Virus record (IMG/VR): IMGVR_UViG_3300032032_000001
Location: 64,001-128,000 of that record
Reading direction: 5' to 3' (one strand)
From: a virus
DNA length: 64,000 bases
Made by a program: the position numbers and the translations under genes. This document shows, one piece after another, positions 3 to 45,852 of this stretch (the first letter of the stretch is position 1; each line of letters starts with the position of its first letter). Under the pieces are notes generated by a model. The model ran no database searches. It was not told where the DNA came from and was given only the letters and a program-made list of their open reading frames with translations.

Positions 3-3000
3 ACCGTTAAAACTACAAGTGGTGACACTAAAGAAATCACCGTTAAAGAGCACACTAGGGAACTTGGTTACCAAGAAAGAGTTAAGCAGATTTTGGCCGA
101 AGAGGGTGTGTCTGAGACAACTGAACTATTTGACCCCGAGACTGGAAAGAGTCTGGGAGAGGTACTGGTAGGCCAGCACTACACTCTTAAGTTAATGCAT
201 CAGGTGGATAAGAAGCTTCGAGCAAGGGCGCATGGGTACGGGCACGACTATGATGCCAACCTCGTCCCTAAGGGCGGCGGGGAGTCCGGTGCTGCTCAGA
301 GGTTTGGGGAACTAGGTCTATATGCAATGCTTGCACACGGCGCGACCTCAAATATACGAGAGGCACTGACCTACAAGAGCGATAAGGCGCAAGACGAAGT
401 TTGGACAGCTGTGCAGACAGGGGCGATCTTACCGGCACCAAAATCCTCGTTCGCATATGAAAAGTTCCTTGCGTACATGCAGGGACTAGGCCTCAACGTG
501 GAGAAGGAGGGCAACGGGTTAGTTGTCAGTCCTCTCACGGAAAAGCAGATTAAAGAAGCGTCTAACGGGGAGATCAAAGACGGAAGCAAGGTGATCAGAG
601 GGAAAGACCTGAAGCCTGAAAAGGGCGGTCTTTTTGATGAGACCGTGACCGGAGGTCCCGGCGGGAAGCACTGGGCACATATGGTGCTTGGGATGTCCAT
701 GCCCAACCCGATGTTTGAGAAGTCAGTCAGATCATTACTCGGTATCACCGGGAAGCAGTACGACGGCATTGTCGATGGCTCTCTGGGGTTTGATGAGAAC
801 GGGGATGTTGTGCCAGCAGCCGATGGCATTCAGACGGGGCCCGAGGCATTAACGAGGGCGCTGGGTAGCATCAACGTAGATAAAGATTTAGCGAGCGCCA
901 AGAAAGACATAAAAACAGCTCGTAGGAACAATTTGGATAAGCTGAACAAGAAGATCAAGTATCTTCTCATGCTTAAGAAAAATGGTCTTTCGCCAAAAGA
1001 GGCGTACACGACATCAGTTGTTCCGGTTCTACCCCCCGTATTCCGACCAATCACGGCTATGGAGGGCGGTGACTTAAACATCGATGGCACAAACATGCTT
1101 TACAGAGACATCGCCATCCTCAGCCAAAAGCTCAAAGAGTCCACCGGGGTCCTTCCCGAGGAAGCCATCTCCGCCCTTCGAGGCGACCTGTATGACGCTG
1201 TTGATGCGTTGATGGGGACATCCACGCCCTCTGAGTCGGCCACCATGACGGACGGGCAAGCCCGCCCACCCGGAATCCTCACCATCCTGTCCGGCAGGCA
1301 GTCGCCCAAGCAGAGCTTTTTTCATAAGCGCATCTTGGATCGAAAGCAGGACATTTCTATGCGGTCGGTGATTGTTCCCAACATGGATCTGCACTTGGAT
1401 GAAATCGGCCTTCCTAGAAAAGGGGCCATGAAAATATACAGACCATTTGTGGTGAAAGAGCTTGTTAGAATGGGGTACACGCCCCTTAGGGCGCGTGAGG
1501 AGATCGAGAAGAAAACGCCCCTTGCGGATAGAGCGCTTGAGGTTGCCGTAAAGAAGCGGCCCGTGTTCTTTAAGCGAGACCCTGTCCTGCATAAGTTTGG
1601 GATTATGGCCTTCCGCCCCAAGCTTCACGACGAATCATCTATTCATATCCACCCCCTGGTGACCGGCGGCTTTAACGCCGACTTTGACGGCGACACGATG
1701 GCTGTGTTTCTTCCTGTGTCCCAGGAGTCTATCGACGAAGCGGAAAAACTACTCCCGTCCAAGAACCTGTTTAACCCCGCCACTGGAAAGGTCATGTACC
1801 AGCCCACATTGGAGGGGCAGCTTGGACTGTTCCTGCTTACGCAGATGGGGAAGAATACCAAGAAGAGCTTTGGCTCGGAAAAGGAAGCGATAGCCTCTGC
1901 GAAAGCGGGGGACACCGCTATGTCTGACGTTGTTTCTGTTGGCGGGAAAAAGACTACGGCAGGTAGATTATTATTCAATAATGCGCTGCCCTCTAAAGTC
2001 CGTTCAGACAAGCTTCTTACTGATCCAGACATGGTTATGGGGAAGAAGAATCTCCAGGCAGTCCTTCGTGGCATTGCTACCAAGTCGCCAGCCGAGTTTC
2101 AGGTAGCGGTTGATAAGATTAAAGATCTTGGGTTTGGGCACGCTTACAATATCGGGTTCTCGTTCAACCTCGGAGACTTTGACGCGATGAGAGATCTTCG
2201 GGAAAAGAAGATGAAGGGGGCGCACGCTAAGGAGGCGGTTATCCGCAAGCAAGAGCGGATGAAGCTCATATCCCCGGAGGCCGCAGAAAAGAAGATCATA
2301 GATCTGTACACGGAGGTCACACAGGATTTATCCACAGAGGCGAAAAAGATCTTGGACAAGAAAGGCAACAAGTTGAGGACGATGGAGAAAGCTGGGGTGA
2401 AGCCCGCCTGGGCTCAGTTGCAGCAGATGCTTATTGGTCCGATGCTGTTGGAGAACGCTAAAGGGCGCGTCATCCCAGTGCCTGTTGATCGATCATACTC
2501 GGAAGGGTTGCGGTCATCCGACTATTGGGTTGCCTCCTCCGGCGCTCGAAAAGGCCTTATTGAAAAAGTCCAGTCTGTGCAAAAGCCTGGAGCTTTGAAC
2601 AAACAGCTTGCAAATACAATGATGTCGTACATCGTCACCGCAGATGACTGCGGGACAACTAAGGGCATCGCCCTAGATGCCGCTGACTCAGACCTTGTTG
2701 ATAGATTTACGGCTAAGCCTATAAGCGCTAAAGGGTTACGAGTTTCGGCCAACACCGCACTAACTCCTGCCCTAGTGTCACGGATAAAGAGCGCTAAGGT
2801 GTCTAAGATTGTCGTTAAGTCCCCTCTCAAGTGTGAGGCTAAAAAAGGGCTGTGCTCAAAGTGCTACGGGCTACAAGACAACGGACTCCCGATCTCAAAA
2901 GGTACGAATATTGGCGTTATAGCCGGTACCGCGCTGGGAGAGCGGGGGACCCAGTTGTCTATGAAAACCTTTCATACTGGTGGTGTCGCTGGCTCATCCG

Positions 3001-3689
3001 GCGGAGTCGTTGGTGGGATAGATCGCATTAGCCAACTACTCAAGATGCCAGCAACTCTCCCCAACGCTGCTGTTCTCTCCCCAGCAACCGCGACTGTTTC
3101 CAGTATCAAAGAAAGCCCCGTGGGTGGTTTTGATATGACAATCGGGAATGAGGATATTTACGTCCCTGCCGGGAGAACCCTGAAGGTAACTAAGGGCTCC
3201 AAGGTGAAGAAGGGGCAGCAGATTTCCAGTGGTGTAATTGACCCACGGGATCTTCTATCTAAAACCAACGTAGATACCGTACAGGCATACATCGCTGATG
3301 AGATTAATAGGGTTTATAAAGCAGAGGGCATTAAGCGCCGAAACATCGAAGTGGTGACTAAGGCGATAACTAATCTCGGCAGAGTAACTAACCCTGGCGG
3401 GTCTGATTTTATCAAAAATGACTACATCTCTATATCACACGCTAATGCCCTAAATAGATCTGGGAAGCTGAAGGAGCCGTTGGTGGTTGAGCCAACGCTT
3501 CGTGGAATTGAGACCCTTCCCCTAGACCAAACAACGGACTGGCTGGCAAGGCTTCAATACCGGAAGTTAAAGGAGACATTTATTAGGGCCGCCAACGAGG
3601 GCTGGGAATCTGATATACATGGAGTGCACCCAACCCCAGGCATCGCCTATTCGGCAGAGTTTGGGAAAGGTAAGGAGGGCCCCTACTGA
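3..3689 (+). CDS. rpoBC: Multisubunit DNA-directed RNA polymerase, beta C-terminus fused to beta' (5'-truncated by the window edge)
   Basis: Frame is open from nt 3. Beta C-terminal motifs YTLKLMHQVDKKLRAR and AQRFGELGLYAMLAHGA run in frame into beta' motifs KPEKGGLFD, VVPVLPPVFRP, RDPVLHK, catalytic NADFDGD, GARKGL, C-terminal Zn site (DDC...C...CSKCYG) and trigger loop GTQLSMKTFHTGG. Confidence 0.95.
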   Translation, partial: TVKTTSGDTKEITVKEHTRELGYQERVKQILAEEGVSETTELFDPETGKSLGEVLVGQHYTLKLMHQVDKKLRARAHGYGHDYDANLVPKGGGESGAAQRFGELGLYAMLAHGATSNIREALTYKSDKAQDEVWTAVQTGAILPAPKSSFAYEKFLAYMQGLGLNVEKEGNGLVVSPLTEKQIKEASNGEIKDGSKVIRGKDLKPEKGGLFDETVTGGPGGKHWAHMVLGMSMPNPMFEKSVRSLLGITGKQYDGIVDGSLGFDENGDVVPAADGIQTGPEALTRALGSINVDKDLASAKKDIKTARRNNLDKLNKKIKYLLMLKKNGLSPKEAYTTSVVPVLPPVFRPITAMEGGDLNIDGTNMLYRDIAILSQKLKESTGVLPEEAISALRGDLYDAVDALMGTSTPSESATMTDGQARPPGILTILSGRQSPKQSFFHKRILDRKQDISMRSVIVPNMDLHLDEIGLPRKGAMKIYRPFVVKELVRMGYTPLRAREEIEKKTPLADRALEVAVKKRPVFFKRDPVLHKFGIMAFRPKLHDESSIHIHPLVTGGFNADFDGDTMAVFLPVSQESIDEAEKLLPSKNLFNPATGKVMYQPTLEGQLGLFLLTQMGKNTKKSFGSEKEAIASAKAGDTAMSDVVSVGGKKTTAGRLLFNNALPSKVRSDKLLTDPDMVMGKKNLQAVLRGIATKSPAEFQVAVDKIKDLGFGHAYNIGFSFNLGDFDAMRDLREKKMKGAHAKEAVIRKQERMKLISPEAAEKKIIDLYTEVTQDLSTEAKKILDKKGNKLRTMEKAGVKPAWAQLQQMLIGPMLLENAKGRVIPVPVDRSYSEGLRSSDYWVASSGARKGLIEKVQSVQKPGALNKQLANTMMSYIVTADDCGTTKGIALDAADSDLVDRFTAKPISAKGLRVSANTALTPALVSRIKSAKVSKIVVKSPLKCEAKKGLCSKCYGLQDNGLPISKGTNIGVIAGTALGERGTQLSMKTFHTGGVAGSSGGVVGGIDRISQLLKMPATLPNAAVLSPATATVSSIKESPVGGFDMTIGNEDIYVPAGRTLKVTKGSKVKKGQQISSGVIDPRDLLSKTNVDTVQAYIADEINRVYKAEGIKRRNIEVVTKAITNLGRVTNPGGSDFIKNDYISISHANALNRSGKLKEPLVVEPTLRGIETLPLDQTTDWLARLQYRKLKETFIRAANEGWESDIHGVHPTPGIAYSAEFGKGKEGPY

Positions 3690-5155
3690 TGGATGATCTA
3701 ACCAGCGCAAACCCGGAGGGGTCGTTTGAGGACTCATATACAAAAACAGGAGCCCAATCGGACGGGCCCGCAAGCATTCAGCTCGCTCAGATAACTAACG
3801 TTAACCCGGAAGAGTACACTGTCGATGTGATGACGACCTACACGCATAAGGCGTTGGTTGACCTCCCGTTCGCTTCGCCGTTATGCCACCGAGATCATCG
3901 CGGCGGCATGTACGCTATGCCGGAGAGAGACGCGTACTGTTACGTGTGCCAGTGCCAGGATGGGACATCTTTTGTCTTAGGGTTTATTAACAACCCCGTT
4001 ACCATAGTGCCTGAAGAGTACGCAGCCGTTGAGGGCTCAACAGCGGAACTGATAACGGAAACAGCAGACAAGGGACCAAGCTTTAAGGGCGCTCGTGGGC
4101 ACCTGGAGCCTGGGGATATTTTCCTGGGCACCCTGGACGGTAACAGCGTTATCGTTCGAAGGGGTGGGATGGTCCAAATCGGGTCTACGTCATTAGCGCA
4201 ACGCATCTATCTGCCGGTCGAGAACGTCATAAGAGATTACTTTCAGAGATACCAAGCAGTAAGCCCTGTAGGGGAGATCGACTGGGGGCACGCTATTTTA
4301 GTGGAGGGCGAGACGCCCACGCAACAGGGCGGGTATCTCGCTAAAGACCTAAAAGACGACAATATCCCCAGCGAGGTCTTAGAGGTCGCTGAGAAGACCC
4401 CTGTTCTTGTTAAGTACAATATTAAAGACCTGTGCCAAGAAGATGTCACTGAAGGCAAGTACACAGTTGAGCTTAGGGTTGGAAGGCTTACGGCGGAACA
4501 GCTTGATCCCGAAGAAGACCCTGAGCATGTGTTCGGTCAGGCGGACCACAAGGCGTCCTCGGACCCGAGAGTAGAAAAACCTGTCAAGGCGTCTTCTGGT
4601 GACAAGGGCATTATAAAAGAAGAAAAGGGCGTTCTAAGTTTCACGATATACCAGCATGATGATGGTGTAGATGACAAGGAACGCGTTAGGTACGTATTCC
4701 AACTTAACAGGGATGGTGATAATCTAATCTTTACGCGTGGAAATATTCACGCCGAAGTATCCCAGACCGTATATGCAAATGTCCGTGAAGGCATTAAGAT
4801 CGTGTACGGAGACAAGGGCGGTAGCAAGGAAACCAAGGAAAACAAACAGTCCATAATTGAATTATTACAGGATAATGATTTCAAGGCGTTTGTTAAGAAT
4901 ATGGTTATAGAGTGCATGGAGGGCTATCACCTAAAGTCCCCCAAAGAGGTTTACATCGAAGGAGAGGCTGAGGTGCAGCTAGGTAAAAAAGGACAAGGCG
5001 GCGCGGATCAATCGGTAGTTCTTTTGGACGATCTGGCAACTTGGCTTACCACAAGCTTTTCCTGCATGACCGCTTGGGGCCCCAGTGGACCTGTTATCAC
5101 ACCACCCACACAGTCGGACATTGCGTCAGCCAGTGTGAAGGCAAAGAAGGGGTAG
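3689..5155 (+). CDS. Putative baseplate hub/central spike protein (Gp5/GpV-like)
   Basis: OB-fold-like N-terminus (AQITNVNPEEYTVDV), beta-strand-rich C-terminus ending in a TAWGPSGP spike-tip-like segment; translationally coupled to the RNAP gene (TGATG). Confidence 0.55.
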   Translation: MDDLTSANPEGSFEDSYTKTGAQSDGPASIQLAQITNVNPEEYTVDVMTTYTHKALVDLPFASPLCHRDHRGGMYAMPERDAYCYVCQCQDGTSFVLGFINNPVTIVPEEYAAVEGSTAELITETADKGPSFKGARGHLEPGDIFLGTLDGNSVIVRRGGMVQIGSTSLAQRIYLPVENVIRDYFQRYQAVSPVGEIDWGHAILVEGETPTQQGGYLAKDLKDDNIPSEVLEVAEKTPVLVKYNIKDLCQEDVTEGKYTVELRVGRLTAEQLDPEEDPEHVFGQADHKASSDPRVEKPVKASSGDKGIIKEEKGVLSFTIYQHDDGVDDKERVRYVFQLNRDGDNLIFTRGNIHAEVSQTVYANVREGIKIVYGDKGGSKETKENKQSIIELLQDNDFKAFVKNMVIECMEGYHLKSPKEVYIEGEAEVQLGKKGQGGADQSVVLLDDLATWLTTSFSCMTAWGPSGPVITPPTQSDIASASVKAKKG

Positions 5156-5159
5156 TATT

Positions 5160-5630
5160 ATGCCATTAGCTGGCGCTTTTAATGATATGAAACAAGCTAT
5201 ATTGTCCTTTGACCTGTCGCCCGGATTTCATGCCGGTAATGAGTGGGCAAAGGTAGCGGAAGCTTATTTCCAGAACGGAACCAACCCTGTCTGGGCTGAC
5301 CTAAGCGCGGGCAAGGCCCAGTTTGCCGCGACAATGGGCCAGGAGATTCCTGCTGACCCGATGCCCGCTGCTGCTATTATTTTCGCTAACGCGTGGGCGG
5401 CTTTTGCGGGAACCTGTGTAGCGAGCTGCTCACCAGGACTCCCCGGATTTATCCCGCCCATAGCGCCGCCACCAAACCCGCCCACTTTTACGTGGAGTGC
5501 TCCGGCAGACACTGTGGACGCGCAGGTGACACAACTTTTGGCAGATTTAACCACGTGGGTTAATGCTGGAACCGTGGCGGTACCGCCTCCGGGACCAGGA
5601 AGTCCTATTCCTACGCCCCCATGGACATAG
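5160..5630 (+). CDS. Hypothetical Pro/Ala-rich virion protein, probably baseplate-associated
   Basis: 156-aa ORF directly after the spike-like gene. Confidence 0.5.
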   Translation: MPLAGAFNDMKQAILSFDLSPGFHAGNEWAKVAEAYFQNGTNPVWADLSAGKAQFAATMGQEIPADPMPAAAIIFANAWAAFAGTCVASCSPGLPGFIPPIAPPPNPPTFTWSAPADTVDAQVTQLLADLTTWVNAGTVAVPPPGPGSPIPTPPWT

Positions 5631-35079: not shown

Positions 35080-35502
35080 TTAACCTTTTGCTAAGACAAG
35101 TAGCTTTCCATCTTCTTCTTTAACCTTTGCAACCAAACCCTGCCTCTTTAAAGCCTTTTGCGCCTTTAGAGCAGAGTACCACTGGTTTACCGATTTCGAG
35201 AAGCTATTGGTTGCTCCGGTCTTAGCCACAAGTCCTCCGACATCGTCTGAGTCATCTACGTGGATGCCGTAGGTGCCATCATCGTTCTTCGCGAAGCCGA
35301 ACCCGGAGTACCCTCCGTGGAACTCTTGCTTCACGAGTATTTCTACTTCGGACTTGTGTGATGTGTAGTACCCTTGGAGGGTGATGGTCTTTCCCTCTTC
35401 AGCCACCACGATCATATCGTCGGGGACCCCTAGCTTTTTCAAGGCAGAAAGGACCGTCTTTTTATCCTTCATGCAGGACTTGCATGTTACCAAGTGTGAC
35501 AT
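35080..35502 (-). CDS. DUF1257/Ycf35-like protein
   Basis: MSHLVTCKSCMKD...LSALKKLG...GFAKNDDGTY...QWYS...QG...EEDGKLLV pattern. Confidence 0.72.
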   Translation of the reverse strand: MSHLVTCKSCMKDKKTVLSALKKLGVPDDMIVVAEEGKTITLQGYYTSHKSEVEILVKQEFHGGYSGFGFAKNDDGTYGIHVDDSDDVGGLVAKTGATNSFSKSVNQWYSALKAQKALKRQGLVAKVKEEDGKLLVLAKG

Positions 35503-35504
35503 TG

Positions 35505-36083
35505 TTACTCCTTCAGTGCTCTCATGAGTCCTAAACTGACGCCTCTAGTCGGGAACCCCGCTATGGTAGCGGTATCCCCATCTATGTGTACTTCTACATC
35601 TGGGATGTCGTCTAGGGACTCTTTTGAGATACGGTTTGTGATGAATACTAGCTCTTGATTTGTCGAGCCCCTCAAGGGCTCATTACATGCCAGATCCCTT
35701 CTGTAAGGACCGGCCACAATTAAGTCGAAAAACCTAGAACCATCAGCATCCCAAAAGGGCTTCTTTTTCAGATCTTCGTACGTAATACCTGTGAACATAA
35801 TTACTGACATATCTGGGTGGCAGAGTCGTACCCTTTCGAGTATCGTCATAATAGGGCTCCACTGCTCTGTTGGCTCCCCACCGCTTATGGTGATTCCGTC
35901 AGGATCCCCACTAACGAGGTCTTCGTAGACCTTGTGCCAAGGCGTGACTGTACCCTTCTCCGCGCTCCAGGTATGCGAATTAAAGCACCCAGGGCATCCT
36001 ATAGTACACCCCTGGACATGTAGAACATTTCTACGCCCAGGGCCGTTAACGTAACTATTTTTGGTTACCTTTGAGATCCTCAT
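35505..36083 (-). CDS. Radical SAM / NrdG-like 4Fe-4S protein
   Basis: NGPGRR, GCTIGCPGCFN (CxxxCxxC), GITISGGEP, RGSTNQ. Confidence 0.85.
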   Translation of the reverse strand: MRISKVTKNSYVNGPGRRNVLHVQGCTIGCPGCFNSHTWSAEKGTVTPWHKVYEDLVSGDPDGITISGGEPTEQWSPIMTILERVRLCHPDMSVIMFTGITYEDLKKKPFWDADGSRFFDLIVAGPYRRDLACNEPLRGSTNQELVFITNRISKESLDDIPDVEVHIDGDTATIAGFPTRGVSLGLMRALKE

Positions 36084-36382
36084 TCGGCACCATCATCTTC
36101 ATGAACTGCGTCTGGATCAAAGTCATCCCACATCGCCCAGTTTTGTAGAACCGGACCATCAACGTCCGCGTTGGAACACGCCTCTGTGGAGAATGGGTAC
36201 ACGTCAATAGATAAGCCCTCGCTGTTAATGAGGATTCCTATATCGGCTTCGCTAGTCCCACTGGGGTCCTTGACACGAATCCATACACGATTATCTGCGT
36301 GTTCTTTAACGAGAGTGTATTCAAACACACTGTTCTGCGTTAAGGCAGGAACGTTCGGACATCCTGACGGGAGGTCCTTCAT
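36080..36382 (-). CDS. Hypothetical protein
   Basis: 100 aa, coupled to both neighbours by 4-nt overlaps. Confidence 0.6.
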   Translation of the reverse strand: MKDLPSGCPNVPALTQNSVFEYTLVKEHADNRVWIRVKDPSGTSEADIGILINSEGLSIDVYPFSTEACSNADVDGPVLQNWAMWDDFDPDAVHEDDGAE

Positions 36383-36561
36383 GTCTTTAGACTTTCGGAG
36401 TCAGTTTCATAGAACTCCGGCTTGATTTCTTCTTTTACAACTTCTCCGCCAAGAGCCTTGATAACGGCGTCAGTGTACTGCTTACAGCCACCGCCTTTGA
36501 TCCCGTTTACCTCGGTCTCGACAGACCCATCCTCATGGATGGTTACTCGCACTTCAACCAT
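36379..36561 (-). CDS. DUF2997-like protein
   Basis: MVEVRVTIHEDGSVETEVNGIKGGGCKQYTDAVIKALG...KPEFY; GGAGG RBS. Confidence 0.78.
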   Translation of the reverse strand: MVEVRVTIHEDGSVETEVNGIKGGGCKQYTDAVIKALGGEVVKEEIKPEFYETDSESLKT

Positions 36562-37405
36562 TGTAATACCTCCAGTATTTAGTGAAATTTTTCTCAATTT
36601 GTTCCGCTGCTTCAATATGCCCAGGACCAAGCGAGACCCCGTCGGGATCCCTCAAATATGACCCAGCCTGTTCGAGTATATTACTTGATAATAATACCCG
36701 CATTAACTCAAACCCACGGGAGAACCCCCGCTGGCTGAACAAGAACCCGCACGATTTACTGTTGGGTGGGCACACCATCGATCTGAATATATTGAATCTA
36801 ACTCTTAGGTAGGCGAGAGACCCGTATTCATTTCTGGTCTTCTCGCGCTCGGTCCTTATCCGGACAGAGCATAATCTGTTGATTGTTCCCTCAAGCGCTG
36901 AAGAAGGCTTAGGGACTAAATCTCGTACAGGAACCCTTAACTGGTTTACGACCAGGATTAAGGCTCCTCTTTTTAACGCTTCCTCTCTTAGAAAACTAAG
37001 GCCGTGGTATGCAGCCTTCCTCTCGGCGAAGGGGACACGTTCATCAACACCTAAGCGCTGATCGCACAGCGGCTCTGTGGAGGACAGGGAGTCTATAGTT
37101 ATCACCATGGCCCCCTCATCAAGAAGGGTGTAAGCCGATTCTATAGCAGACTCCATGCTGTTTGGGATGACGGCTATTAGGTCCTTTGGACCAGCAGCCT
37201 GTATATACCCAGAGCTAGGGAAAGCCTCCGTATGGATAAGGGCGGTCGGGAGGCCCCCAACGGAGGCCTCCCTCATCACACTGAAACACAACGTAGATTT
37301 ACCACTAGCGTCCTCCCCGATAACTTCACAGATACCGGGTGGTATTCCTCCAAGGAGCGCTTCATCTAGTTGATAGATGCCAGTGCGATGCCGCCCATAA
37401 CTCAA
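36554..37405 (-). CDS. Divergent RecA-family ATPase
   Basis: TGIYQLDEALLGGIPPG, GEDASGKST Walker A, ITIDSL Walker B, VVNQLR. Confidence 0.8.
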   Translation of the reverse strand: MSYGRHRTGIYQLDEALLGGIPPGICEVIGEDASGKSTLCFSVMREASVGGLPTALIHTEAFPSSGYIQAAGPKDLIAVIPNSMESAIESAYTLLDEGAMVITIDSLSSTEPLCDQRLGVDERVPFAERKAAYHGLSFLREEALKRGALILVVNQLRVPVRDLVPKPSSALEGTINRLCSVRIRTEREKTRNEYGSLAYLRVRFNIFRSMVCPPNSKSCGFLFSQRGFSRGFELMRVLLSSNILEQAGSYLRDPDGVSLGPGHIEAAEQIEKNFTKYWRYYNG

Positions 37406-39006
37406 CTGTCGCCCTCTGCTTTTCGCAGTTCGTCCCAGCCGCTACCCTTGACACTTGTCACCTTAGCGGTGCGCCGTGATCTCTTGGGCTTCTTCTGCTT
37501 TGCTTGGGTTTCTTGAACTGTGTTAGCCAAGAGCGCTCTACCGTTTGCCCACTTGCGTAAGGCTTCGATCTTAGTACCCATTGTTGTTGACAGCGGGACT
37601 GTATTGGAAGCTGCGGTGACCATGTCATCACACTCCAGGTCTCTATTTTCAGCGAAAGCCTTGTACATACCGTCCACAACAACCTGTTCAATTTCGGCAC
37701 CCGTGAAGGAGTTGGTCTCCTCCGCCAGACGCTTAACGTCAAACTTGTCTGAGTCTCTACCCAGTCTGGATATGTGGATCTTGAACACTTCCTCGCGATC
37801 AACCTGTGAGGGTAGGTCTACGAAAAACAATTCGTCAAACCGGCCCTTTCGAAGCATCTCTGGCGGAAGCGCAGATACGTCATTAGCGGTAGCCACTACG
37901 AAGACCTGAGATGTCTTCTCAGACATCCAAGACAAGAAACTACCAAACACACGAGCAGATGTTCCACTGTCGTGTGACCCAGAAGCCGAACCAAAACCCT
38001 TTTCGATCTCATCGATCCAAAGGACACATGGTGAAATAGCTTCAGCGGTCTTGATAGCTTTCCTGAAATTGGCTTCAGACTGTCCAACATACTGGCCAAA
38101 CAAGGCACCTACATCCATACGGAGTACGGGCATTTGCCAAGCCGAACCAATACACTTTGCAGTTAGTGATTTCCCTGTACCAGGGATACCAACAATGAGA
38201 ACGCCTTTGGGGTGCGGGAGACCAAACTCCCTAGCCTCTTCAGAAAAAGCTCGACCACGCTGGTCCAACCATGTCTTAAGAGTATTCAAACCACCAACAT
38301 CACCCATCGCCCGATCAACTTCATGGTACTGAAGCACGCCAGACTTGCGGATAATGTGCTTCTTCTCATCCAAAACAACGCGAGGCTCTATGCCCTCACA
38401 CTTTGCTAAGGATTTCGAGAAGACGTTCTCTACTTCTGTAAGAGTTAAGCCTATAGCGGCTGAGCAACCCTCTTTGAGCATGTTATCTTTCTCTTCATCG
38501 GTTTTAGAATCCCCAAAGAAGTCTTCAATAATATGCCTGTTCCAGCGCTCTAGTTCAGATTCATCAGGTAGATCAAAATCTACAACAGACATAATCTTCT
38601 CAAGCCGTGGGGGAACCTTTAGTTCGCTATCAATTATTACCACGGTAATACCGGGGTTCATTGTATTGGCTAGATCCCTAAGCTTCCTCTGCACTGGATA
38701 ACATGGACCCTCGTTGAGCCAGTAGCCGAAGTCCTTAAGAAGGAATACAGCTGACTGCTCATGCTCCCCGATTTTTTCGAGGATATCTAAAGGTGTCTCA
38801 ACATCTGGGAAATGCTCGTTCCCACAGTATGCTCCCTCAGTGAAGCTCCACGTCCAAAGTGACGCGTTTGCTTCAGAGGATACGTTCTTTCTCTCAACGA
38901 CACTTGCCAGTGCCTGCGCAACCCGATGCTCTTCGTGGCTAACCACATAGACCACCGGGTGCGCGGCTCTGACAAGAACGTCGAGTTCTTCGACGCTACG
39001 GTTCAC
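37402..39006 (-). CDS. Ycf46-type AAA+ ATPase
   Basis: DVGGLNTLKTWL, GIPGTGKS, LWIDEIEK, ATAN...LPPEMLRKGRFDELFFVDLP, FTGAEIEQ; degenerate N-terminal AAA domain. Confidence 0.9.
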   Translation of the reverse strand: MNRSVEELDVLVRAAHPVVYVVSHEEHRVAQALASVVERKNVSSEANASLWTWSFTEGAYCGNEHFPDVETPLDILEKIGEHEQSAVFLLKDFGYWLNEGPCYPVQRKLRDLANTMNPGITVVIIDSELKVPPRLEKIMSVVDFDLPDESELERWNRHIIEDFFGDSKTDEEKDNMLKEGCSAAIGLTLTEVENVFSKSLAKCEGIEPRVVLDEKKHIIRKSGVLQYHEVDRAMGDVGGLNTLKTWLDQRGRAFSEEAREFGLPHPKGVLIVGIPGTGKSLTAKCIGSAWQMPVLRMDVGALFGQYVGQSEANFRKAIKTAEAISPCVLWIDEIEKGFGSASGSHDSGTSARVFGSFLSWMSEKTSQVFVVATANDVSALPPEMLRKGRFDELFFVDLPSQVDREEVFKIHISRLGRDSDKFDVKRLAEETNSFTGAEIEQVVVDGMYKAFAENRDLECDDMVTAASNTVPLSTTMGTKIEALRKWANGRALLANTVQETQAKQKKPKRSRRTAKVTSVKGSGWDELRKAEGDS

Positions 39007-39899
39007 TATTCACCCATCCGAATGCGGCGTTTCCGCTTGACGGTTGGCTTCTTAGTTTCCTTTGAGACCTCAACCGCATCGGTTGCGTCAATAATATGCA
39101 GAAGGTCCTCTGTCTCAATTTCACAGAAGTACCAACGCACAACTCGGTCAACCGCTTCGCGGTACTCCTTGTCGAGGTCAGCATTATCCTTTGCAAGGAA
39201 CGTTCTAAGCTCTTCCATCTCCTTCTTGGAGCGGTAGGTCTTAGCTCGCTTACGCTGCTTCTCCTTGGGGACCTCATCAGCACCCTGGCCAAGCATGACC
39301 TCTAGGGCCTCATCCTGTCCCTTCTCGTTGGGATTACCGTCCTCGCGGACGATCTTCGACAACTGCTTCGCCTGGGTCATTGTGATTCGACCGTGACGAA
39401 GCGCCTCAAAGGATACAGTGCTCAAGCCTTTGTAGGTTGCGCAAAGAACGCTAACCTGTGGCTGTGAGATATTCAGCATACTGGCTACAGACTGTTGATT
39501 CCCAACGCGGTCATTAAGTCGATAAATCGACTCACAACGATCCGCGAAGTTCAGCGACTTCCTCTGTAGGTTTTCTGCAATGTTTAAGGCCAAGGCATCC
39601 TCAAGAGATCCTTCATGGACACCGCATTGGATGGTATCAAAGAAACCATCACCATCGTTTCCACGAGAGTCTCTCTCCTCAAGGATTGCTTGAACCCTAC
39701 GATAACCAGCGATCAGAAGAACTCTCTCATTGCCCTTGTCATCCTGAAGGATGTGGACAATAGGGGGGTTCATCAATCCATCGGAAATGATGGAAGATCG
39801 TAGGTCTCTGGTATCGCCCACATCAGAACGGCTGTTCTTGAATCCGAGCGTATTTCTCTCAATGTCTTCAATTTTGAATGACTTTTGCGCAAGTTGCAT
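39006..39899 (-). CDS. ParB/Spo0J-like protein
   Basis: LRSSIISDGLMNPPIV, LIAGYRRVQA, AENLQRKSL, HTH QQSVASMLNISQPQVS; GGAGG RBS upstream of ATG 39899. Confidence 0.85.
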   Translation of the reverse strand: MQLAQKSFKIEDIERNTLGFKNSRSDVGDTRDLRSSIISDGLMNPPIVHILQDDKGNERVLLIAGYRRVQAILEERDSRGNDGDGFFDTIQCGVHEGSLEDALALNIAENLQRKSLNFADRCESIYRLNDRVGNQQSVASMLNISQPQVSVLCATYKGLSTVSFEALRHGRITMTQAKQLSKIVREDGNPNEKGQDEALEVMLGQGADEVPKEKQRKRAKTYRSKKEMEELRTFLAKDNADLDKEYREAVDRVVRWYFCEIETEDLLHIIDATDAVEVSKETKKPTVKRKRRIRMGE

Positions 39900-40009
39900 T
39901 AGTTTCCTCCTATCTGCGTTGATAAGCGCACACACGTTACGAAAGTTTCCGGGCTGTAGTAGTCGGGATAAACCAGCCCATACTTATATCCACGTTTATT
40001 ATTAATAAA

Positions 40010-42239: not shown

Positions 42240-42917
42240 CTAATTGGCTACAGTTGTGATGACTTGATTCATAAAGATATTAGCGAAATCAATTTCCGCA
42301 GAATCAAAACGAATCTCCTCACCGATAATACTCTTTGCAAGCAAGGAGCAGATGATCGAAGATAAGCCGTACGCACAGAAGACCGTCGCCTTCTCAGTAC
42401 AGGGGAGCGCTACCGCTTCATCATCGGAGAACAAGCTTGCCTCGTACTTTTCGATAGACTTACGGTTAGACTTGTCTACAAAGAAGACTTGCCCAAACCG
42501 TGCGGCCATCCGGCCATCGATAAAGTATCTGGAAGATGTACTCATGAGGAAAGATTCAAATATGGCCTTTCGAGAAGCCATATTATCCACAGCAGAAACT
42601 ACGTACACTTCGTCAAACTTGTGTCCGTCCTCTACCCTTTTGTCCTCAGCAATGATTTCAGCACCAGTGCCTTCTGTAAGACGCTTAGCTATTGCTTCAC
42701 ATTTCTTATACCCGATTTCAGGTATGAAATAGCCTTGATTGGCTAGGTTATGCATCTCCACCGTGTCATCATCGAAGACCCGAATTTTGCGCACACCCAT
42801 CTTAGTCATAGCCTCCGCAGTATGGGAGCCAATAGCCCCCACACCCACAACAGCTACCGTAGTATTATTAATGAGTTCGTCAGGAATGATTCCACTCTGC
42901 CTTGTTGTATCAATCAT
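42240..42917 (-). CDS. E1-like (ThiF/MoeB family) ubiquitin-activating enzyme
   Basis: VVGVGAIGS, DDDTVEMHNLANQ, SAVDNMASRK, IDGRM, candidate catalytic Cys in LPCTEK. Confidence 0.9.
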   Translation of the reverse strand: MIDTTRQSGIIPDELINNTTVAVVGVGAIGSHTAEAMTKMGVRKIRVFDDDTVEMHNLANQGYFIPEIGYKKCEAIAKRLTEGTGAEIIAEDKRVEDGHKFDEVYVVSAVDNMASRKAIFESFLMSTSSRYFIDGRMAARFGQVFFVDKSNRKSIEKYEASLFSDDEAVALPCTEKATVFCAYGLSSIICSLLAKSIIGEEIRFDSAEIDFANIFMNQVITTVAN

Positions 42918-43911
42918 CTAATTCCTCCTTTTTCTCATCCTCATCCTCTTGCGCCATATAGGCCTCATAATCAGAACCATCGTCGTCTTTAGTTGGGGTA
43001 ACCAACTCTTCGACATCTACACCGTGCACAAGCTCAAGCTCCTGCAAGAGTTCTTCTTTTGAGATCTCTTGCGCGTAGAACTTGGTGTAAAGCTCCATGG
43101 CATCATTGGCTCCGATATCATTTCCATCGTAAGCCTTCTGTAGCTCAGGAAGCTCAAAGGGGAAGTCGAGGGCCTCAATAACCTCCTCAACCTTTCCAGC
43201 AGCATCATATGCACCATGGACTCCTCCCATAGCCCAATCCGTATCGTCGTCCATTGCCCAGGATGTGTCGTAAACCTGACCACCAGTACCGATGCGGGTA
43301 TACCCACTACCGGTGTACCAACTCTTTGTTTTTGCGGCGGGAGCCTTAGTCACACTGATACGCTCGGCGCGGAAGGTTGCCTTCTCTACATACTTCTCAA
43401 TAATGTCTTCCGCCCAGCCATCTGGGAGGATGTCAATTTGATCAACAGCATATGAGCACTTCTCAAACGAGTACCGAATAGGTGACATCATGTCGATTCT
43501 CAGATTGAGATCACCCTTCTTATTGGTGATCACAGAGATACACACCGAATCAAAATCAAACTTCTCAATTTGACTCTCATCAGTACCGCTGTGTCCCGTG
43601 TCCATGTTTACGTGACTATGCCACCAAACAACAATCTGCTCAGACTTGATCCCCTTCTCCCGTAGGTCGAAAGTTAGATCCACAAGAGCTTCGTCATCTA
43701 GAACAGTGGATGTCCCAGAGCACAACTGCTTAACAGGGAAGAACTCTGTTACGTAGAAGTCTTCACCGACTCCCGCGTCATCCTTTTCTTCTTCGGTGGC
43801 GATGATTCCCATCGCACTTATTTCAATGTCACATTTATTTGTTAGTCTAAACATTTGCTGGTAGGCCTTCTGGGAAAACCTAACCGTCGGCTTGCTGAGT
43901 ACTTTCATCAA
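42910..43911 (-). CDS. JAB/JAMM metalloprotease (DUB-like) with acidic C-terminal extension
   Basis: EISAMG glutamate and exact JAMM motif HSH-x7-S-x2-D (WWHSHVNMDTGHSGTD). Confidence 0.85.
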   Translation of the reverse strand: MMKVLSKPTVRFSQKAYQQMFRLTNKCDIEISAMGIIATEEEKDDAGVGEDFYVTEFFPVKQLCSGTSTVLDDEALVDLTFDLREKGIKSEQIVVWWHSHVNMDTGHSGTDESQIEKFDFDSVCISVITNKKGDLNLRIDMMSPIRYSFEKCSYAVDQIDILPDGWAEDIIEKYVEKATFRAERISVTKAPAAKTKSWYTGSGYTRIGTGGQVYDTSWAMDDDTDWAMGGVHGAYDAAGKVEEVIEALDFPFELPELQKAYDGNDIGANDAMELYTKFYAQEISKEELLQELELVHGVDVEELVTPTKDDDGSDYEAYMAQEDEDEKKEELDD

Positions 43912-44974
43912 TAACTCCTAGTTTCTGTATTTGGGTAACTGCCGCTTTAGCGACATCAATAAATTCTACAAATTCACCCAAAACACAGGACCCCTTAGAG
44001 AGTCCCGGGTGGGAGTTTCGATGCCAGCGCATACATTCAGATGCACTCATTCCACAGTCCTCAACAGGACCAGTACTTTCACAGCCACACTTGTCTATCC
44101 AAAGACCCTTCCCACATGCACAGAGCTTGTGGTCCCAGCGATTCGCTATGCCAAACTTATGTAGTCGCGCATACGGATCGACGTGGTTGTATGTGATTAA
44201 ATATTCTGTGGTTGTTACTATTACGTTAGCGATGTCTTTGTTCTTCATGTGCTGAAGAAGCATCCTCTGAACGTTCCCCAAGCAGGGACTACCATCTGTT
44301 TGGATATGCGGATGGGAGTACGATGAGAAGCTGATATTGTTACCCGCTTGTCGGAACGAGGCTGTAACGCCCTGAAAACCATTCGCTTGGTAAGTGTAAC
44401 GGATCTCTACCTTGAACTTACCAAAGACCTGATCAAGGAAGCCTCCGAAGCCATCCTTCAGCTTAATTGTGTTTGTTGTCCACGATAGAATTGAGACCCC
44501 GCTTATGGGATCCTCAACATAGTTTACCGGGACGCGCTTATCTATAAACGAGTCAACTGACTTAAGCATGAACGCTCTATTAGAGAGCGAGGACTCATCG
44601 TATAGATCATCAAAATTCGACAGAAACGAATTCTTAGAATGAATCTCCGCAGACAGGTTACGCTGCTCATCAGCTAACTGGCTAACACGGGACGACTTAT
44701 CCAGGTACTTACGCCTTGCAATCTCACTTCTTGACTTGGCCGCCATGTAATCAGAGTACTTCTGGATCTCACGGCTTTTCTGTTTTTCATATATTCTTTG
44801 CCGAGCGGCAGCCTTTGCTTCAACAGCTTCTTGACTCTTCACTACTTGTGCGAGCCTCTTACCAAGACGCTCACTGTCTTCACGTGCGGATGAAGCGGCA
44901 GACTCTACAATACTGTCTAGATCTTTTATTAATGTCTCATCTTCGGCACACAGCCGAATAGAAAATGCGTTCAT
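43880..44974 (-). CDS. E2-like (UBC-fold) conjugating enzyme with N-terminal coiled coil and Cys/His-rich C-terminus
   Basis: SHPHIQTDGSPCLGN matches the E2 HP(N/H)..G..CL catalytic signature; gene lies between the JAB and Ubl genes. Confidence 0.72.
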   Translation of the reverse strand: MNAFSIRLCAEDETLIKDLDSIVESAASSAREDSERLGKRLAQVVKSQEAVEAKAAARQRIYEKQKSREIQKYSDYMAAKSRSEIARRKYLDKSSRVSQLADEQRNLSAEIHSKNSFLSNFDDLYDESSLSNRAFMLKSVDSFIDKRVPVNYVEDPISGVSILSWTTNTIKLKDGFGGFLDQVFGKFKVEIRYTYQANGFQGVTASFRQAGNNISFSSYSHPHIQTDGSPCLGNVQRMLLQHMKNKDIANVIVTTTEYLITYNHVDPYARLHKFGIANRWDHKLCACGKGLWIDKCGCESTGPVEDCGMSASECMRWHRNSHPGLSKGSCVLGEFVEFIDVAKAAVTQIQKLGVIDESTQQADG

Positions 44975-44994
44975 TCCACACCTCCATGGGTTCC

Positions 44995-45027
44995 AAAAAA
45001 AAGGGGGAGGACAAAAGCCCTCCCCCC
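44995..45027 (-). terminator. Intrinsic terminator between the Ubl and E2 genes
   Basis: On the - strand: GGGGGAGG...CCTCCCCC stem followed by T8. Confidence 0.75.
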
Positions 45028-45047
45028 AGAATTATTAACAAGTAATA

Positions 45048-45500
45048 CTAGATTCCACCGGCAACCTTTTGTGCGATGAAAATCTCGTGCTCACCCGGAC
45101 CAACTGCTTGGGACAGGTCAGTAATCTCTACGGTCTGCCCAGGGCCAACACGACGTTTAAAAGTAACGTCATCAGTTGACCAGCTCAGGGAGTGCATAAG
45201 GTCGGCAACAGAAGTGTGCGCCGGAACCTCTACACACCGATCACTCTTACCGCTGCGGATTAACGAAACAACACAGAATTCTGCGTCGCCCTTAGCCTCG
45301 GAGGACATGCTAGACGCCGCTTCCTTAGCTTCGGCCTCCTCTAACGCCGATGTCTTAGTGGCTACCATTTTCTGCAAAGCGGAAAGCTTATCCATAGCGG
45401 GTTGACTAAAGTTCTCAGCAAGCTCTTTGTATTGAGCGTCACGCTGTGTGGTGGTTTCTTCTAGGTCCGTTTTCAGACGGGCCAGATTATCATTTGCCAT
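45048..45500 (-). CDS. Ubiquitin-like (beta-grasp) protein with N-terminal coiled coil, C-terminus -VAGGI
   Basis: VEVPAHTSVADLM...AVGPGEHEIFIAQKVAGG-I fits a MoaD/ThiS/Ub fold with a di-Gly capped by one residue; AAGGAG RBS. Confidence 0.75.
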   Translation of the reverse strand: MANDNLARLKTDLEETTTQRDAQYKELAENFSQPAMDKLSALQKMVATKTSALEEAEAKEAASSMSSEAKGDAEFCVVSLIRSGKSDRCVEVPAHTSVADLMHSLSWSTDDVTFKRRVGPGQTVEITDLSQAVGPGEHEIFIAQKVAGGI

Positions 45501-45852
45501 TAGGCGTCTCCTTTTCCCACAGGAACTGTGGAAATGTTTTTGTTATTTCTTTTGTAATAGATTCCGGTGTCTCACCAGACCACATAACCACAGAGGACTC
45601 CCCTGCGTTTATCCTAGTAGCCCCGCCCCCTGGTTCTGGGTTTGCGGACTCGGACCTGTTGGTAGTTGTTGCCGAAGCTGTATATCCAAGCCTATCCAAC
45701 AGCTCTCCCTCAACTTTAGGCTCAGGCCCAAAGTAAAGAGTCACAGTCCAATTCTTGAATTCTGTAGTTTTGACAGTTCTCTGTTTTCCAAGCGCCGCCG
45801 CTATATTATGGGGCGTTGGATGATCGGGGATATTCTCGTCCGATTTCATCAA
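45490..45852 (-). CDS. Hypothetical protein overlapping the Ubl gene start
   Basis: 120-aa ORF; its 3' end contains the RBS of the Ubl gene. Confidence 0.55.
   Translation of the reverse strand: MMKSDENIPDHPTPHNIAAALGKQRTVKTTEFKNWTVTLYFGPEPKVEGELLDRLGYTASATTTNRSESANPEPGGGATRINAGESSVVMWSGETPESITKEITKTFPQFLWEKETPNGK

What the first reader, a model, noticed from the sequence alone, without database searches (positions are those of the whole stretch)
42240..45500. Complete phage-encoded ubiquitin-like conjugation operon (Ubl - E2 - JAB - E1)
Seen in sequence: four consecutive, co-directional, mostly overlapping genes. They encode (i) a beta-grasp protein ending ...KVAGG-I, (ii) an E2-like protein with HPHI...GSPCLG, (iii) a JAB/JAMM protease with an exact HSH-x7-S-x2-D motif and (iv) a ThiF/E1 with a candidate catalytic Cys. 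No thiamine, molybdopterin or sulfur-transfer genes are nearby. Established knowledge: E1+E2+JAB+Ubl sets exist in bacteria (for example the Bil antiphage and Bub systems), where the DUB trims the Ubl to expose its terminal Gly. Inference: here the virus carries the whole cascade in its early arm, so it may ubiquitinate host proteins (takeover, counter-defence) or its own proteins. This reverses the usual bacteria-versus-phage role.
Basis: partly seen in the sequence, partly recalled or inferred. Interest (0 to 1): 0.93.

Follow-up and report, generated by a model that had tools for sequence, protein, structure and literature searches.

The report
Phage-encoded ubiquitin-like protein tagging cassette
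A large uncultured phage carries four adjacent genes for a ubiquitin-like tag, an E2-type carrier enzyme, a trimming protease and an activating enzyme; kits with this gene content have been studied only as bacterial anti-phage defences, and this version proves common in phage contigs.

Summary
Four co-directional minus-strand genes at 42240-45500 lie in a 148-kb IMG/VR phage record.

- **Ubl:** a beta-grasp protein (AF2 pLDDT 78; Foldseek hits are Ubl/SUMO/MoaD domains). It has an invariant VAGG followed by a variable 1-3-residue tail.
- **E2:** a UBC homologue. A core-only family profile hits solved E2 enzymes at E=2.7e-6, with HPH on HPN and Cys231 on the catalytic Cys. No Pfam model recognises it.
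- **JAB:** all JAMM residues are invariant, and its only PDB profile hits are RPN11/PSMD14.
- **E1:** a 225-aa single-domain ThiF-type enzyme with an invariant crossover-loop Cys173.

The record holds no ThiG, MoaE, rhodanese or PP-loop gene.

The E2-JAB-E1 triad recurs in 29 IMG/VR loci and 65 metagenome-assembled genome (MAG) loci. A ThiS-like gene ending GG plus a short tail often sits upstream of it. Distant versions occur in cultured Xanthomonas jumbo phages and probably in crAss-like phages.

It is not Bil (that E1 has a different architecture), nor Bub, CBASS Cap2/Cap3 or PRTRC. My reading is a working Ubl conjugation cascade whose target is unknown: a new variant of a known kind.

Caveats: there is no biochemistry, the E1 lacks the canonical Arg finger, and my AF2 model of the E2 was poor. 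I found no paper on phage-borne cassettes. Earlier runs of this scan noted similar phage cassettes on other DNA.

The parts
45048..45500 (-). Ubl precursor, 150 aa. It has an N-terminal two-helix region (residues 2-64), a disordered linker (62-72) and a C-terminal beta-grasp domain (75-149). Gly148-Gly149 lie at 45054-45059 and the capping Ile150 at 45051-45053.
   Evidence: ORF. AF2 with a 13-sequence alignment gave pLDDT 78, with the beta-grasp part at 80-90 and topology bb-a-bbb. Foldseek PDB hits are Ubl domains, SUMO, MoaD, Caldiarchaeum ubiquitin and ISG15. BFVD hits are viral ubiquitins plus uncharacterised crAss-like and Flavobacterium phage proteins. VAGG is invariant and followed by a variable 1-3-aa tail in 13 relatives.
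44992..45027 (-). Intrinsic-terminator-like hairpin (11-bp stem, 8 G-C pairs, then a T-run) between the Ubl and E2 genes. A GGAGG ribosome-binding site for E2 follows it.
   Evidence: Found. A strong hairpin plus T-run occupies the same position in three related phages, with different stem sequences, -28 to -38 kcal/mol.
43880..44974 (-). E2-like protein, 364 aa. It has a long N-terminal helix or coiled coil (residues about 10-124), a UBC core (about 128-278) with His221-Pro222-His223 (44306-44314) and Cys231 (44282-44284), and a Cys/His-rich C-terminal tail (residues about 282-330, 43985-44131).
   Evidence: 443 relatives at E<=1e-3. P222, H223, C231 and Y262 are invariant in 75 of them. The core-only profile A8 against the PDB returns only E2 enzymes in the 60 listed hits, best E=2.7e-6, with motifs in register. 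4 of 58 distant members hit Pfam UQ_con. ESM Atlas structure match to a Prok-E2_D cluster, TM 0.56. 64 of 75 members have at least 6 Cys in the tail.
42910..43911 (-). JAB/JAMM metalloprotease, 333 aa. Catalytic domain is about residues 1-170, with Glu30 (43822-43824) and His98-x-His100...Ser108..Asp111 (43579-43620). A conserved acidic helical C-terminal region of unknown role follows.
   Evidence: All five JAMM residues are invariant in four relatives. The profile against the PDB hits only RPN11/PSMD14, best E=0.0034, with the motif aligned. Pfam Prok-JAB is sub-threshold at E=0.012.
42240..42917 (-). Minimal E1 (ThiF-type single adenylation domain), 225 aa. It has G25-x-G27-x-x-G30, Asp111 and an invariant Cys173 (42399-42401) at the crossover-loop position. 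The canonical Arg finger is replaced (H56-N-L-A-N-Q61).
   Evidence: Pfam ThiF E=8e-22. PDB hits are UBA5, UBA1 and MccB. Alignment of 21 cassette E1s shows an invariant Cys and a conserved HN[LI]xNQ.

Best explanation
This is a phage-encoded ubiquitin-like conjugation cascade. The mechanism below is inferred from homology; no step has been shown.

1. The Ubl is made as a precursor capped by Ile150. It is probably made in excess over the enzymes, because a conserved terminator separates its gene from them.
2. The JAMM protease removes the cap and exposes Gly-Gly. It may also reverse conjugates.
3. The single-domain E1, probably a homodimer like ThiF/MoeB/UBA5, adenylates Gly149 and takes the Ubl onto Cys173.
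4. The Ubl passes to Cys231 of the UBC-type E2.
5. The E2 delivers it to an amino group on a target protein. Its coiled-coil N-terminus and Cys/His-rich (probably zinc-binding) tail may serve as built-in substrate or E3-like modules.

The target and the benefit to the phage are unknown. Candidates are host takeover, counter-defence, modification of phage proteins, or exclusion of rival phages.
For: Component identities:
- Ubl beta-grasp fold.
- Invariant GG with a variable short tail, the signature of a processed modifier.
- E2 homology to solved UBC enzymes at E=2.7e-6. HPH aligns with HPN, and Cys231 aligns with the catalytic Cys 8 residues after the motif. Both are invariant or nearly so across 133 family members.
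- All JAMM catalytic residues present, with RPN11 as the only PDB relative.
- E1 is ThiF/UBA5-like with an invariant Cys.

Linkage:
- E2 is followed by JAB and/or E1 in nearly all of 29 IMG/VR loci that have enough flank.
- The same holds in 56 of 65 MAG loci.
- A small upstream ORF often ends GG plus 1-4 residues. Some of these hit Pfam ThiS, e.g. L027 at E=4.2e-6.
- Flanking genes are not conserved with the module, so the four genes form the functional unit.
- In Xanthomonas phage PhiXhv-12 the upstream protein ends exactly in GG and no JAB gene was seen within 5 kb either side of its E1. This fits a cap-trimming role for JAB.

No sulfur-pathway partners exist in the record.
Against: - There is no biochemical evidence for any step.
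- The E1 lacks the canonical Arg finger (NLxRQ reads HNLANQ). The change is conserved across the clade, so it is probably tolerated, but adenylation is unproven.
- My AF2 model of the E2 was poor (pLDDT 48, only 3 sequences).
- Curated Pfam UQ_con and Prok-E2_D models do not detect the window's E2.
- No E3 or target is identified.
- The assignment of Cys173 as catalytic rests on position and conservation only.
Confidence: 0.7

Rival explanations
1. The cascade is biochemically the same, but it is a defence system carried by the phage. It would tag proteins of competing phages (superinfection exclusion), as bacterial Bil tags phage tail proteins, rather than acting on the host or on the phage's own proteins.
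For: The gene content matches Bil: Ubl, E2, JAB, E1 (PMC11601596). The same module sits on megabase-scale Myxococcota contigs, up to three copies on one chromosome, as expected of mobile defence cassettes. Tandem E2 paralogues suggest diversifying specificity.
Against: The family is mainly found in viral contigs and sits among replication and nucleotide-metabolism genes at a conserved position in four related large phages. There are no defence-island neighbours or CapW/CapH-type regulators, and no PADLOC hit beyond the generic E1 domain. Its E1 architecture differs from Bil's.
Confidence: 0.17
2. It is a sulfur-carrier system. The E1 adenylates the Ubl to form a thiocarboxylate for a cofactor or for tRNA or nucleoside thiolation, as with ThiS/ThiF, MoaD/MoeB or TtuB/TtuC. 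JAB would only mature the carrier.
For: The E1 resembles ThiF/MoeB in size and domain content, and NCBIfam ThiF models give the best sub-threshold hits. Related Ubls hit Pfam ThiS. GenBank annotators call the phage homologues 'thiamine biosynthesis protein'.
Against: A UBC-type E2 with an invariant catalytic Cys is strictly linked to the E1, and sulfur relays do not use one. No ThiG, MoaE, rhodanese or PP-loop ATPase is present in the 148-kb record. The E1 lacks a rhodanese domain and the CxxC zinc motifs.
Confidence: 0.06
3. It is a counter-defence tool that works mainly by deconjugation or decoy. JAB would strip host Ubl or CD-NTase conjugates (Bil, type II CBASS), and the phage Ubl/E2 would titrate host enzymes. 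No productive phage-driven conjugation would occur.
For: JAB is the family's nearest analogue to Cap3/BilC-type deconjugases. Phages are known to counter Ubl-based defences (established knowledge, not tested here).
Against: Conservation of E1 Cys173, E2 Cys231 and the Ubl GG across very distant members argues that the forward reaction is under selection. PhiXhv-12 keeps Ubl, E2 and E1 with no JAB gene seen within 5 kb either side of its E1.
Confidence: 0.07

Closest known systems
Bil (BilABCD, types I/II) bacterial anti-phage Ubl conjugation operons
   Same: Same four functions in one operon: a Ubl with a C-terminal Gly, a UBC-type E2 with a catalytic Cys, a JAB/JAMM peptidase and an E1 (PMC11601596).
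   Different: [quoted passage not shown] Here the E1 is a 225-aa single domain with the Cys in the crossover loop. The E2 belongs to a family that Pfam does not recognise and carries a coiled coil and a Cys-rich tail. The Ubl has an N-terminal helical extension. The carrier is a phage, and no PADLOC defence model matches beyond the generic E1 domain.
Archaeal SAMP/UbaA/HvJAMM1 and Thermus TtuB/TtuC systems
   Same: Minimal ThiF/MoeB-like single-domain E1, a ThiS/MoaD-like Ubl ending GG, and a JAMM protease. Related phage Ubls hit the Pfam ThiS and SAMP2 models.
   Different: Those systems have no E2 and double as sulfur carriers. Here a UBC-type E2 is obligatorily linked and no sulfur-pathway partners are present.
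Eukaryote-like Ub operon of Caldiarchaeum subterraneum and Asgard archaea (Ub, E1, E2, small RING, Rpn11-like)
   Same: Ub-like tag, separate E1 and E2, and an Rpn11-like JAMM. RPN11 is the only PDB relative of the JAB, and canonical eukaryotic E2s are the best PDB matches of the E2 core. The E2's Cys-rich tail could be a counterpart of the small RING.
   Different: The E1 is much smaller and there is no separate RING gene. Sequences are too diverged for curated UQ_con detection. The module is viral.
Bub (formerly 6E/DUF6527) and type II CBASS Cap2/Cap3
   Same: Prokaryotic E1/E2/peptidase conjugation machinery on mobile elements. PADLOC Cap2 'E1-E2' models match the E1 domain.
   Different: Bub uses fused Ubl-E2 (BubAB) and peptidase-E1 (BubCD) proteins, with a DUF6527-type E2-like domain. 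Cap2 is an E2-E1 fusion acting on a CD-NTase without a Ubl. None of these features is present.

Membership tests
UBC/E2 superfamily | HPN-type motif followed about 8 residues later by the catalytic Cys | tested here: met
   H221-P222-H223 and C231. P222, H223 and C231 are invariant in 75 members and again in 58 further members. They align with HPN and the catalytic Cys of solved E2s.
UBC/E2 superfamily | Significant profile similarity to solved E2 enzymes over the core | tested here: met
   Core-only profile A8 against the PDB: the 60 listed hits are all E2 enzymes, best 2AAK at E=2.7e-6 covering chain residues 7-123.
UBC/E2 superfamily | UBC fold in a confident structure model | tested here: inconclusive
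   AF2 with 3 sequences gave pLDDT 48. The secondary-structure order (helix, four or five strands, HPH loop, Cys, long helix) is compatible. The ESM Atlas model matches a Prok-E2_D cluster at TM 0.56.
Pfam UQ_con / Prok-E2_A-E | Score above the curated gathering threshold | tested here: not met
   No hit for the window protein. Only 4 of 133 relatives reach UQ_con at E<0.01.
E1/ThiF superfamily | ThiF adenylation domain with GxGxxG and the Mg-binding Asp | tested here: met
   Pfam ThiF 77.9 bits against a cut-off of 28.1. G25/G27/G30 and D111 are conserved in 21 cassette E1s.
E1/ThiF superfamily | Arg finger in the NLxRQ motif | tested here: not met
   The motif reads HNLANQ. Asn/Gln is conserved at these positions across the cassette E1 clade.
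JAMM/MPN+ metalloproteases | Glu ... HxH-x7-S-x2-D zinc and catalytic motif | tested here: met
   E30, H98, H100, S108 and D111 are invariant. The profile hits only RPN11/PSMD14, best E=0.0034. Pfam Prok-JAB stays below threshold, 16 against 25 bits.
Ubiquitin-like beta-grasp modifiers | Beta-grasp fold with a C-terminal Gly-Gly exposed by processing | tested here: met
   Fold shown. VAGG is invariant and followed by a variable 1-3-aa tail. Processing itself cannot be tested here.
Bil (BilABCD) | [quoted passage not shown] | tested here: not met
   The E1 is 225 aa with one ThiF domain spanning residues 16-204. Architecture definition taken from PMC11601596.
Bub / 6E | DUF6527-type E2-like domain in fused Ubl-E2 (BubAB) and peptidase-E1 (BubCD) proteins | tested here: not met
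   No DUF6527 hit. Here the Ubl, E2, JAMM peptidase and E1 are four separate proteins.
Type II CBASS Cap2/Cap3 | Fused E2-E1 protein next to a CD-NTase, with no Ubl | tested here: not met
   E2 and E1 are separate genes and a Ubl gene is present. PADLOC matches cover only the E1 domain.
PRTRC system | TIGR03736 ThiF above cut-off together with PRTRC proteins A-F | tested here: not met
   TIGR03736 scores 63.4 bits against a cut-off of 144.75. No other PRTRC model hits the eight genes scanned, which include both immediate neighbours on each side but not the ParB-like gene.
ThiS/ThiF, MoaD/MoeB or TtuB/TtuC sulfur relay | Partner genes: ThiG, MoaE, rhodanese or a PP-loop thiolase | tested here: not met
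   None is present in the 148-kb record, while controls matched in 11-14 of 14 genomes.

The most novel reading that the evidence does not exclude
Tailed phages of many lineages carry their own ubiquitin-like conjugation machinery and use it during infection to tag host or viral proteins. The lineages include marine ~180-kb phages, Xanthomonas/Erwinia jumbo phages and possibly crAss-like gut phages. The machinery is built on an unrecognised UBC-type E2 family with a built-in zinc-rich targeting tail. This would be a virus-side counterpart of bacterial Bil and eukaryotic ISG15/ubiquitin warfare.
Probability: 0.45. Interest if true: 0.9.

Novelty: new variant of a known kind. Interest (0 to 1): 0.77.

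Why it matters
Prokaryotic Ubl conjugation (Bil, Bub, CBASS Cap2) has been characterised as something bacteria do to phages. Here the virus owns a complete cascade.

The E2 belongs to a large family: 443 representatives at 50% identity. Pfam, NCBIfam, PHROGs and PADLOC do not recognise it, so these cassettes are invisible to current annotation. GenBank homologues of the E1 are labelled 'thiamine biosynthesis protein'.

The family reaches cultured phages (Xanthomonas phage PhiXhv-12 and relatives), so the question of what a phage tags, and why, can be tested directly. It also adds a minimal E1 plus canonical-type E2 combination to the picture of how ubiquitin signalling evolved.

Tried and rejected
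- **DNA and protein searches of GenBank phages** with the cassette or the E2 found nothing.
- **Pfam, NCBIfam, PHROGs and PADLOC** gave no call for the Ubl or E2 and only a sub-threshold one for JAB.
- **Single-sequence PDB search** with the E2 hit only lamin, a coiled-coil artefact.
- **The full-length family profile** against the PDB was swamped by coiled-coil proteins. Trimming to the core fixed this.
- **AF2 of the E2** with three sequences was unusable. I did not fold-search that model.
A degenerate DNA motif scan replaced it.
- **The ESM Atlas** gave nothing for the 252-aa downstream protein.
- **Neighbouring genes as part of the system** (120-aa, SLT, 252-aa, 358-aa, ParB-like, AAA): rejected, because none travels with the module outside the four close relatives.
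- **PRTRC membership** was considered because a ParB-like gene lies near a ThiF gene. It is rejected on NCBIfam scores.
- **The LSm3 hits** to the JAB C-terminus are treated as spurious.
- **Literature searches** found no description of phage-encoded Ubl-E2-JAB-E1 cassettes. The held library is incomplete, so this is not proof of absence.
Full report
**Source and observation**

The window is bases 64001-128000 of a 148,364-bp IMG/VR virus record that CheckV rates 83% complete. Identical proteins occur on contigs up to 181,912 bp. The phage is therefore about 180 kb: large, but not jumbo.

PHROG matches identify RNA-polymerase beta-like genes, a large terminase, a head protease, a sheath-like protein, a helicase and ribonucleotide reductase. 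They lie in a minus-strand block (about 34.2-55.9 kb) that also holds RecA-like, AAA, NYN and RNR genes, opposite the plus-strand structural block.

**Ubl (45048-45500)**

No library names this protein. It has 13 relatives at 52-87% identity, several on 150-182-kb contigs. Their alignment shows an invariant VAGG followed by a tail of 1-3 residues that differs in nearly every sequence: I, NAC, A, SVL, SLQ, N, VLR and others. That pattern is what one expects of a modifier made as a capped precursor.

AF2 on this alignment gave mean pLDDT 78, with the C-terminal domain at 80-90 and topology bb-a-bbb. Two N-terminal helices precede it. Foldseek against the PDB returns Ubl domains of TBCE/TBCB and USP7, SUMO, MoaD, Caldiarchaeum ubiquitin and ISG15, with target-normalised TM about 0.6-0.69. 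Against BFVD it returns giant-virus ubiquitins and uncharacterised proteins of crAss-like and Flavobacterium phages. The beta-grasp criterion is met.

**E2-like protein (43880-44974)**

Word-based search found only three relatives. An exhaustive HMMER profile search found 443 at E<=1e-3.

- Across 75 of these, P222, H223, C231 and Y262 are invariant, and H221, G233, P267 and G185 nearly so. In 58 more distant members HPH, the Cys and the Gly are again invariant.
- No Pfam family covers them. UQ_con is the most frequent sub-threshold match, in 4 of 58 members, best E=8.5e-4.
- My AF2 model, built on only three sequences, was poor at pLDDT 48.
- The full-length profile was swamped by coiled-coil hits. 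I therefore cut the core out of 31 phage loci by reference and searched the PDB.
- All 60 listed hits are ubiquitin-conjugating enzymes, best 2AAK at E=2.7e-6. The alignment spans nearly the whole UBC core. HPH sits on HPN, Cys231 on the catalytic Cys, and the YN..DP segment on the PNP..P segment after helix 2.
- The ESM Atlas's own model of this protein matches a Prok-E2_D cluster at TM 0.56, and its nearest feature clusters are mostly viral.

I take UBC homology as established by sequence profile and the fold as very likely. The protein adds a long N-terminal helix (pLDDT up to 89). It also adds a Cys/His-rich tail that 64 of 75 relatives share and that draws weak zinc-finger and zinc-ribbon matches.

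**JAB (42910-43911)**

Glu30, His98, His100, Ser108 and Asp111 are invariant in the four close relatives. The profile's only PDB hits at E<=1 are RPN11/PSMD14, best E=0.0034, aligned through the motif.

**E1 (42240-42917)**

Pfam ThiF scores E=8e-22. PDB relatives are UBA5, UBA1 and MccB.

An alignment of 21 cassette E1s shows the nucleotide loop, Asp111 and a Cys at position 173 in every sequence. From my knowledge of ThiF Cys184 and MoeB Cys187, this is the crossover-loop position. That equivalence is an inference, not a tool result.

The canonical Arg finger is missing: the motif reads HNLANQ. The substitution is conserved across the clade, so it is not decay, but it is a real caveat. At 225 aa there is no room for the inactive-domain plus Cys-domain architecture of Bil's E1 (PMC11601596).

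**Operon anatomy**

E2, JAB and E1 overlap and are presumably translationally coupled. Between the Ubl and E2 genes lies an 11-bp G+C-rich hairpin with a T-run. Three relatives have an equally strong hairpin plus T-run at the same place but with different stem sequences. This suggests a selected terminator or attenuator that would make the tag more abundant than the enzymes.

**Recurrence**

- Three related large-phage contigs keep the whole neighbourhood.
- A degenerate DNA pattern for the HPH...CLGN motif found 29 IMG/VR loci on contigs of 12-231 kb. HMMs built from the four close cassettes show E2 followed by JAB and E1, in either order, in almost every locus with enough flank. Tandem E2 paralogues occur in five loci.
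- The same pattern found 69 loci in GTDB genomes, all of them MAGs. Of these, 65 are true family members and 56 have JAB and/or E1 adjacent.
- Many loci carry a small upstream ORF ending ...PK[VI]xGG plus 1-4 residues. Three of these hit Pfam ThiS, one above threshold.
- None of the window's other neighbours travels with the module.
- The MAG hits include megabase-scale Myxococcota contigs, one chromosome with three copies. The family is therefore not exclusively viral; those copies may or may not be prophage-borne.

**Cultured phages**

tblastn with the E1 finds 79 GenBank phage records: crAss-like Bacteroides phages, Flavobacterium phages and Xanthomonas/Erwinia jumbo phages. They are mostly annotated 'thiamine biosynthesis protein'.

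- **Xanthomonas phage PhiXhv-12:** the E1 is preceded by an 892-aa protein with an HPH...CLG motif and Cys-rich ends (E2-core HMM E=1.2e-4). Before that lies a 140-aa protein ending exactly in GG. No JAB gene was seen within 5 kb either side of the E1, which fits JAB's main job being cap removal.
- **crAss-like phage DAC17:** a protein with the exact JAMM motif precedes the E1. The gene before it carries an HSH...PCLGEG variant. That resemblance is at motif level only.

**Alternatives**

A sulfur relay is unlikely. The E2 is obligatory, and ThiG, MoaE, rhodanese and PP-loop genes are absent from the record, while the same searches matched in 11-14 of 14 control genomes.

Membership in Bil, Bub, CBASS Cap2/Cap3 or PRTRC fails on defining features. 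Whether the phage uses the cascade on host proteins, on its own proteins or on rival phages cannot be decided from sequence.

**Novelty**

I found no paper describing phage-encoded Ubl-E2-JAB-E1 cassettes in the held library. Iyer et al. 2006 describe phage TAPI/JAB tail modules and bacterial E1/E2/JAB operons, but not this.

Earlier runs of this scan reported comparable phage cassettes on other DNA, including mentions of crAss-like and jumbo phages. My results agree with those notes but were derived independently here.

**Verdict**

A real, complete and probably functional Ubl conjugation cassette of a new variant. It has a minimal E1, an unrecognised UBC-type E2 family and phage carriage. 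Its target is unknown.

Noticed in passing
window 44992-45027 (minus strand): A strong intrinsic-terminator-like hairpin lies between the Ubl and E2 genes. Three related phages have one at the same position with different stem sequences, which suggests selected differential expression of the tag and the enzymes.
   Followed up: partly
window 43985-44131 (E2 residues about 282-330): The E2 has a Cys/His-rich C-terminal tail that 64 of 75 family members share. The consensus resembles CxC..CxxC...CGxCxxCC...H...C, and some members give weak zinc-ribbon, AN1 or Prok-RING matches. It may be a built-in zinc-binding, E3-like or substrate module.
   Followed up: partly
L035 (Xanthomonas phage PhiXhv-12, PV764601.1) 1715-5591: A cultured 227-kb phage has a related cassette. 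A 140-aa protein ends exactly in GG, an 892-aa protein carries HPH...CLG and very Cys-rich ends, and then comes the E1. No JAB gene was seen within 5 kb either side of the E1. The genes are annotated hypothetical or 'thiamine biosynthesis protein'.
   Followed up: partly
L036 (Bacteroides phage DAC17, MT074138.1) 2254-5627: A crAss-like phage carries a protein with the exact JAMM motif directly before a ThiF-type E1. A 394-aa protein precedes them with an HSH...PCLGEG variant of the E2 motif. BFVD fold hits of the window's Ubl include uncharacterised crAss-like phage proteins. This may be a divergent version of the same module in gut phages.
   Followed up: partly
L034:586-999 (minus strand); tandem pairs also in L013, L015, L020, L021: Several phage contigs carry two E2-family genes in tandem. 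One paralogue (L034) has HPN and lacks the catalytic Cys, like eukaryotic UEV partners of Ubc13.
   Followed up: no
L042, L057, L091 (Myxococcota MAG chromosome OZ223209.1) and other Myxococcota loci: The same E2-JAB module occurs up to three times on a 5.98-Mb Myxococcota chromosome and on other megabase-scale contigs. The family is therefore not purely viral. Whether these copies are prophage-borne was not checked.
   Followed up: no
L018, L024, L029 (small ORFs upstream of E2): Some putative Ubls of the family end in ...KGN or ...KGN plus tail rather than GG, so the modifier C-terminus varies within the family.
   Followed up: no
window 42735-42752 (E1 residues 56-61): The E1 Arg-finger motif NLxRQ reads HNLANQ. 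Asn/Gln is conserved at these positions across 21 cassette E1s, so this clade may bind ATP differently from ThiF/MoeB/UBA enzymes.
   Followed up: partly
window 45490-45852 (minus strand): A 120-aa ORF of unknown function overlaps the Ubl start codon by 11 nt. It is kept in the three close relatives but not seen with the module elsewhere.
   Followed up: partly
window 35080-39935 (minus strand): Downstream lie a ParB-like gene (no Pfam hit, GYRRLQAI motif), a classic-clade AAA ATPase (PF00004 plus AAA_lid_3; phrog_8638), a RecA-like gene, a radical-SAM/4Fe-4S protein and DUF1257. Only one distant locus (L019) also has the AAA, so a link to the Ubl module is unsupported.
   Followed up: partly
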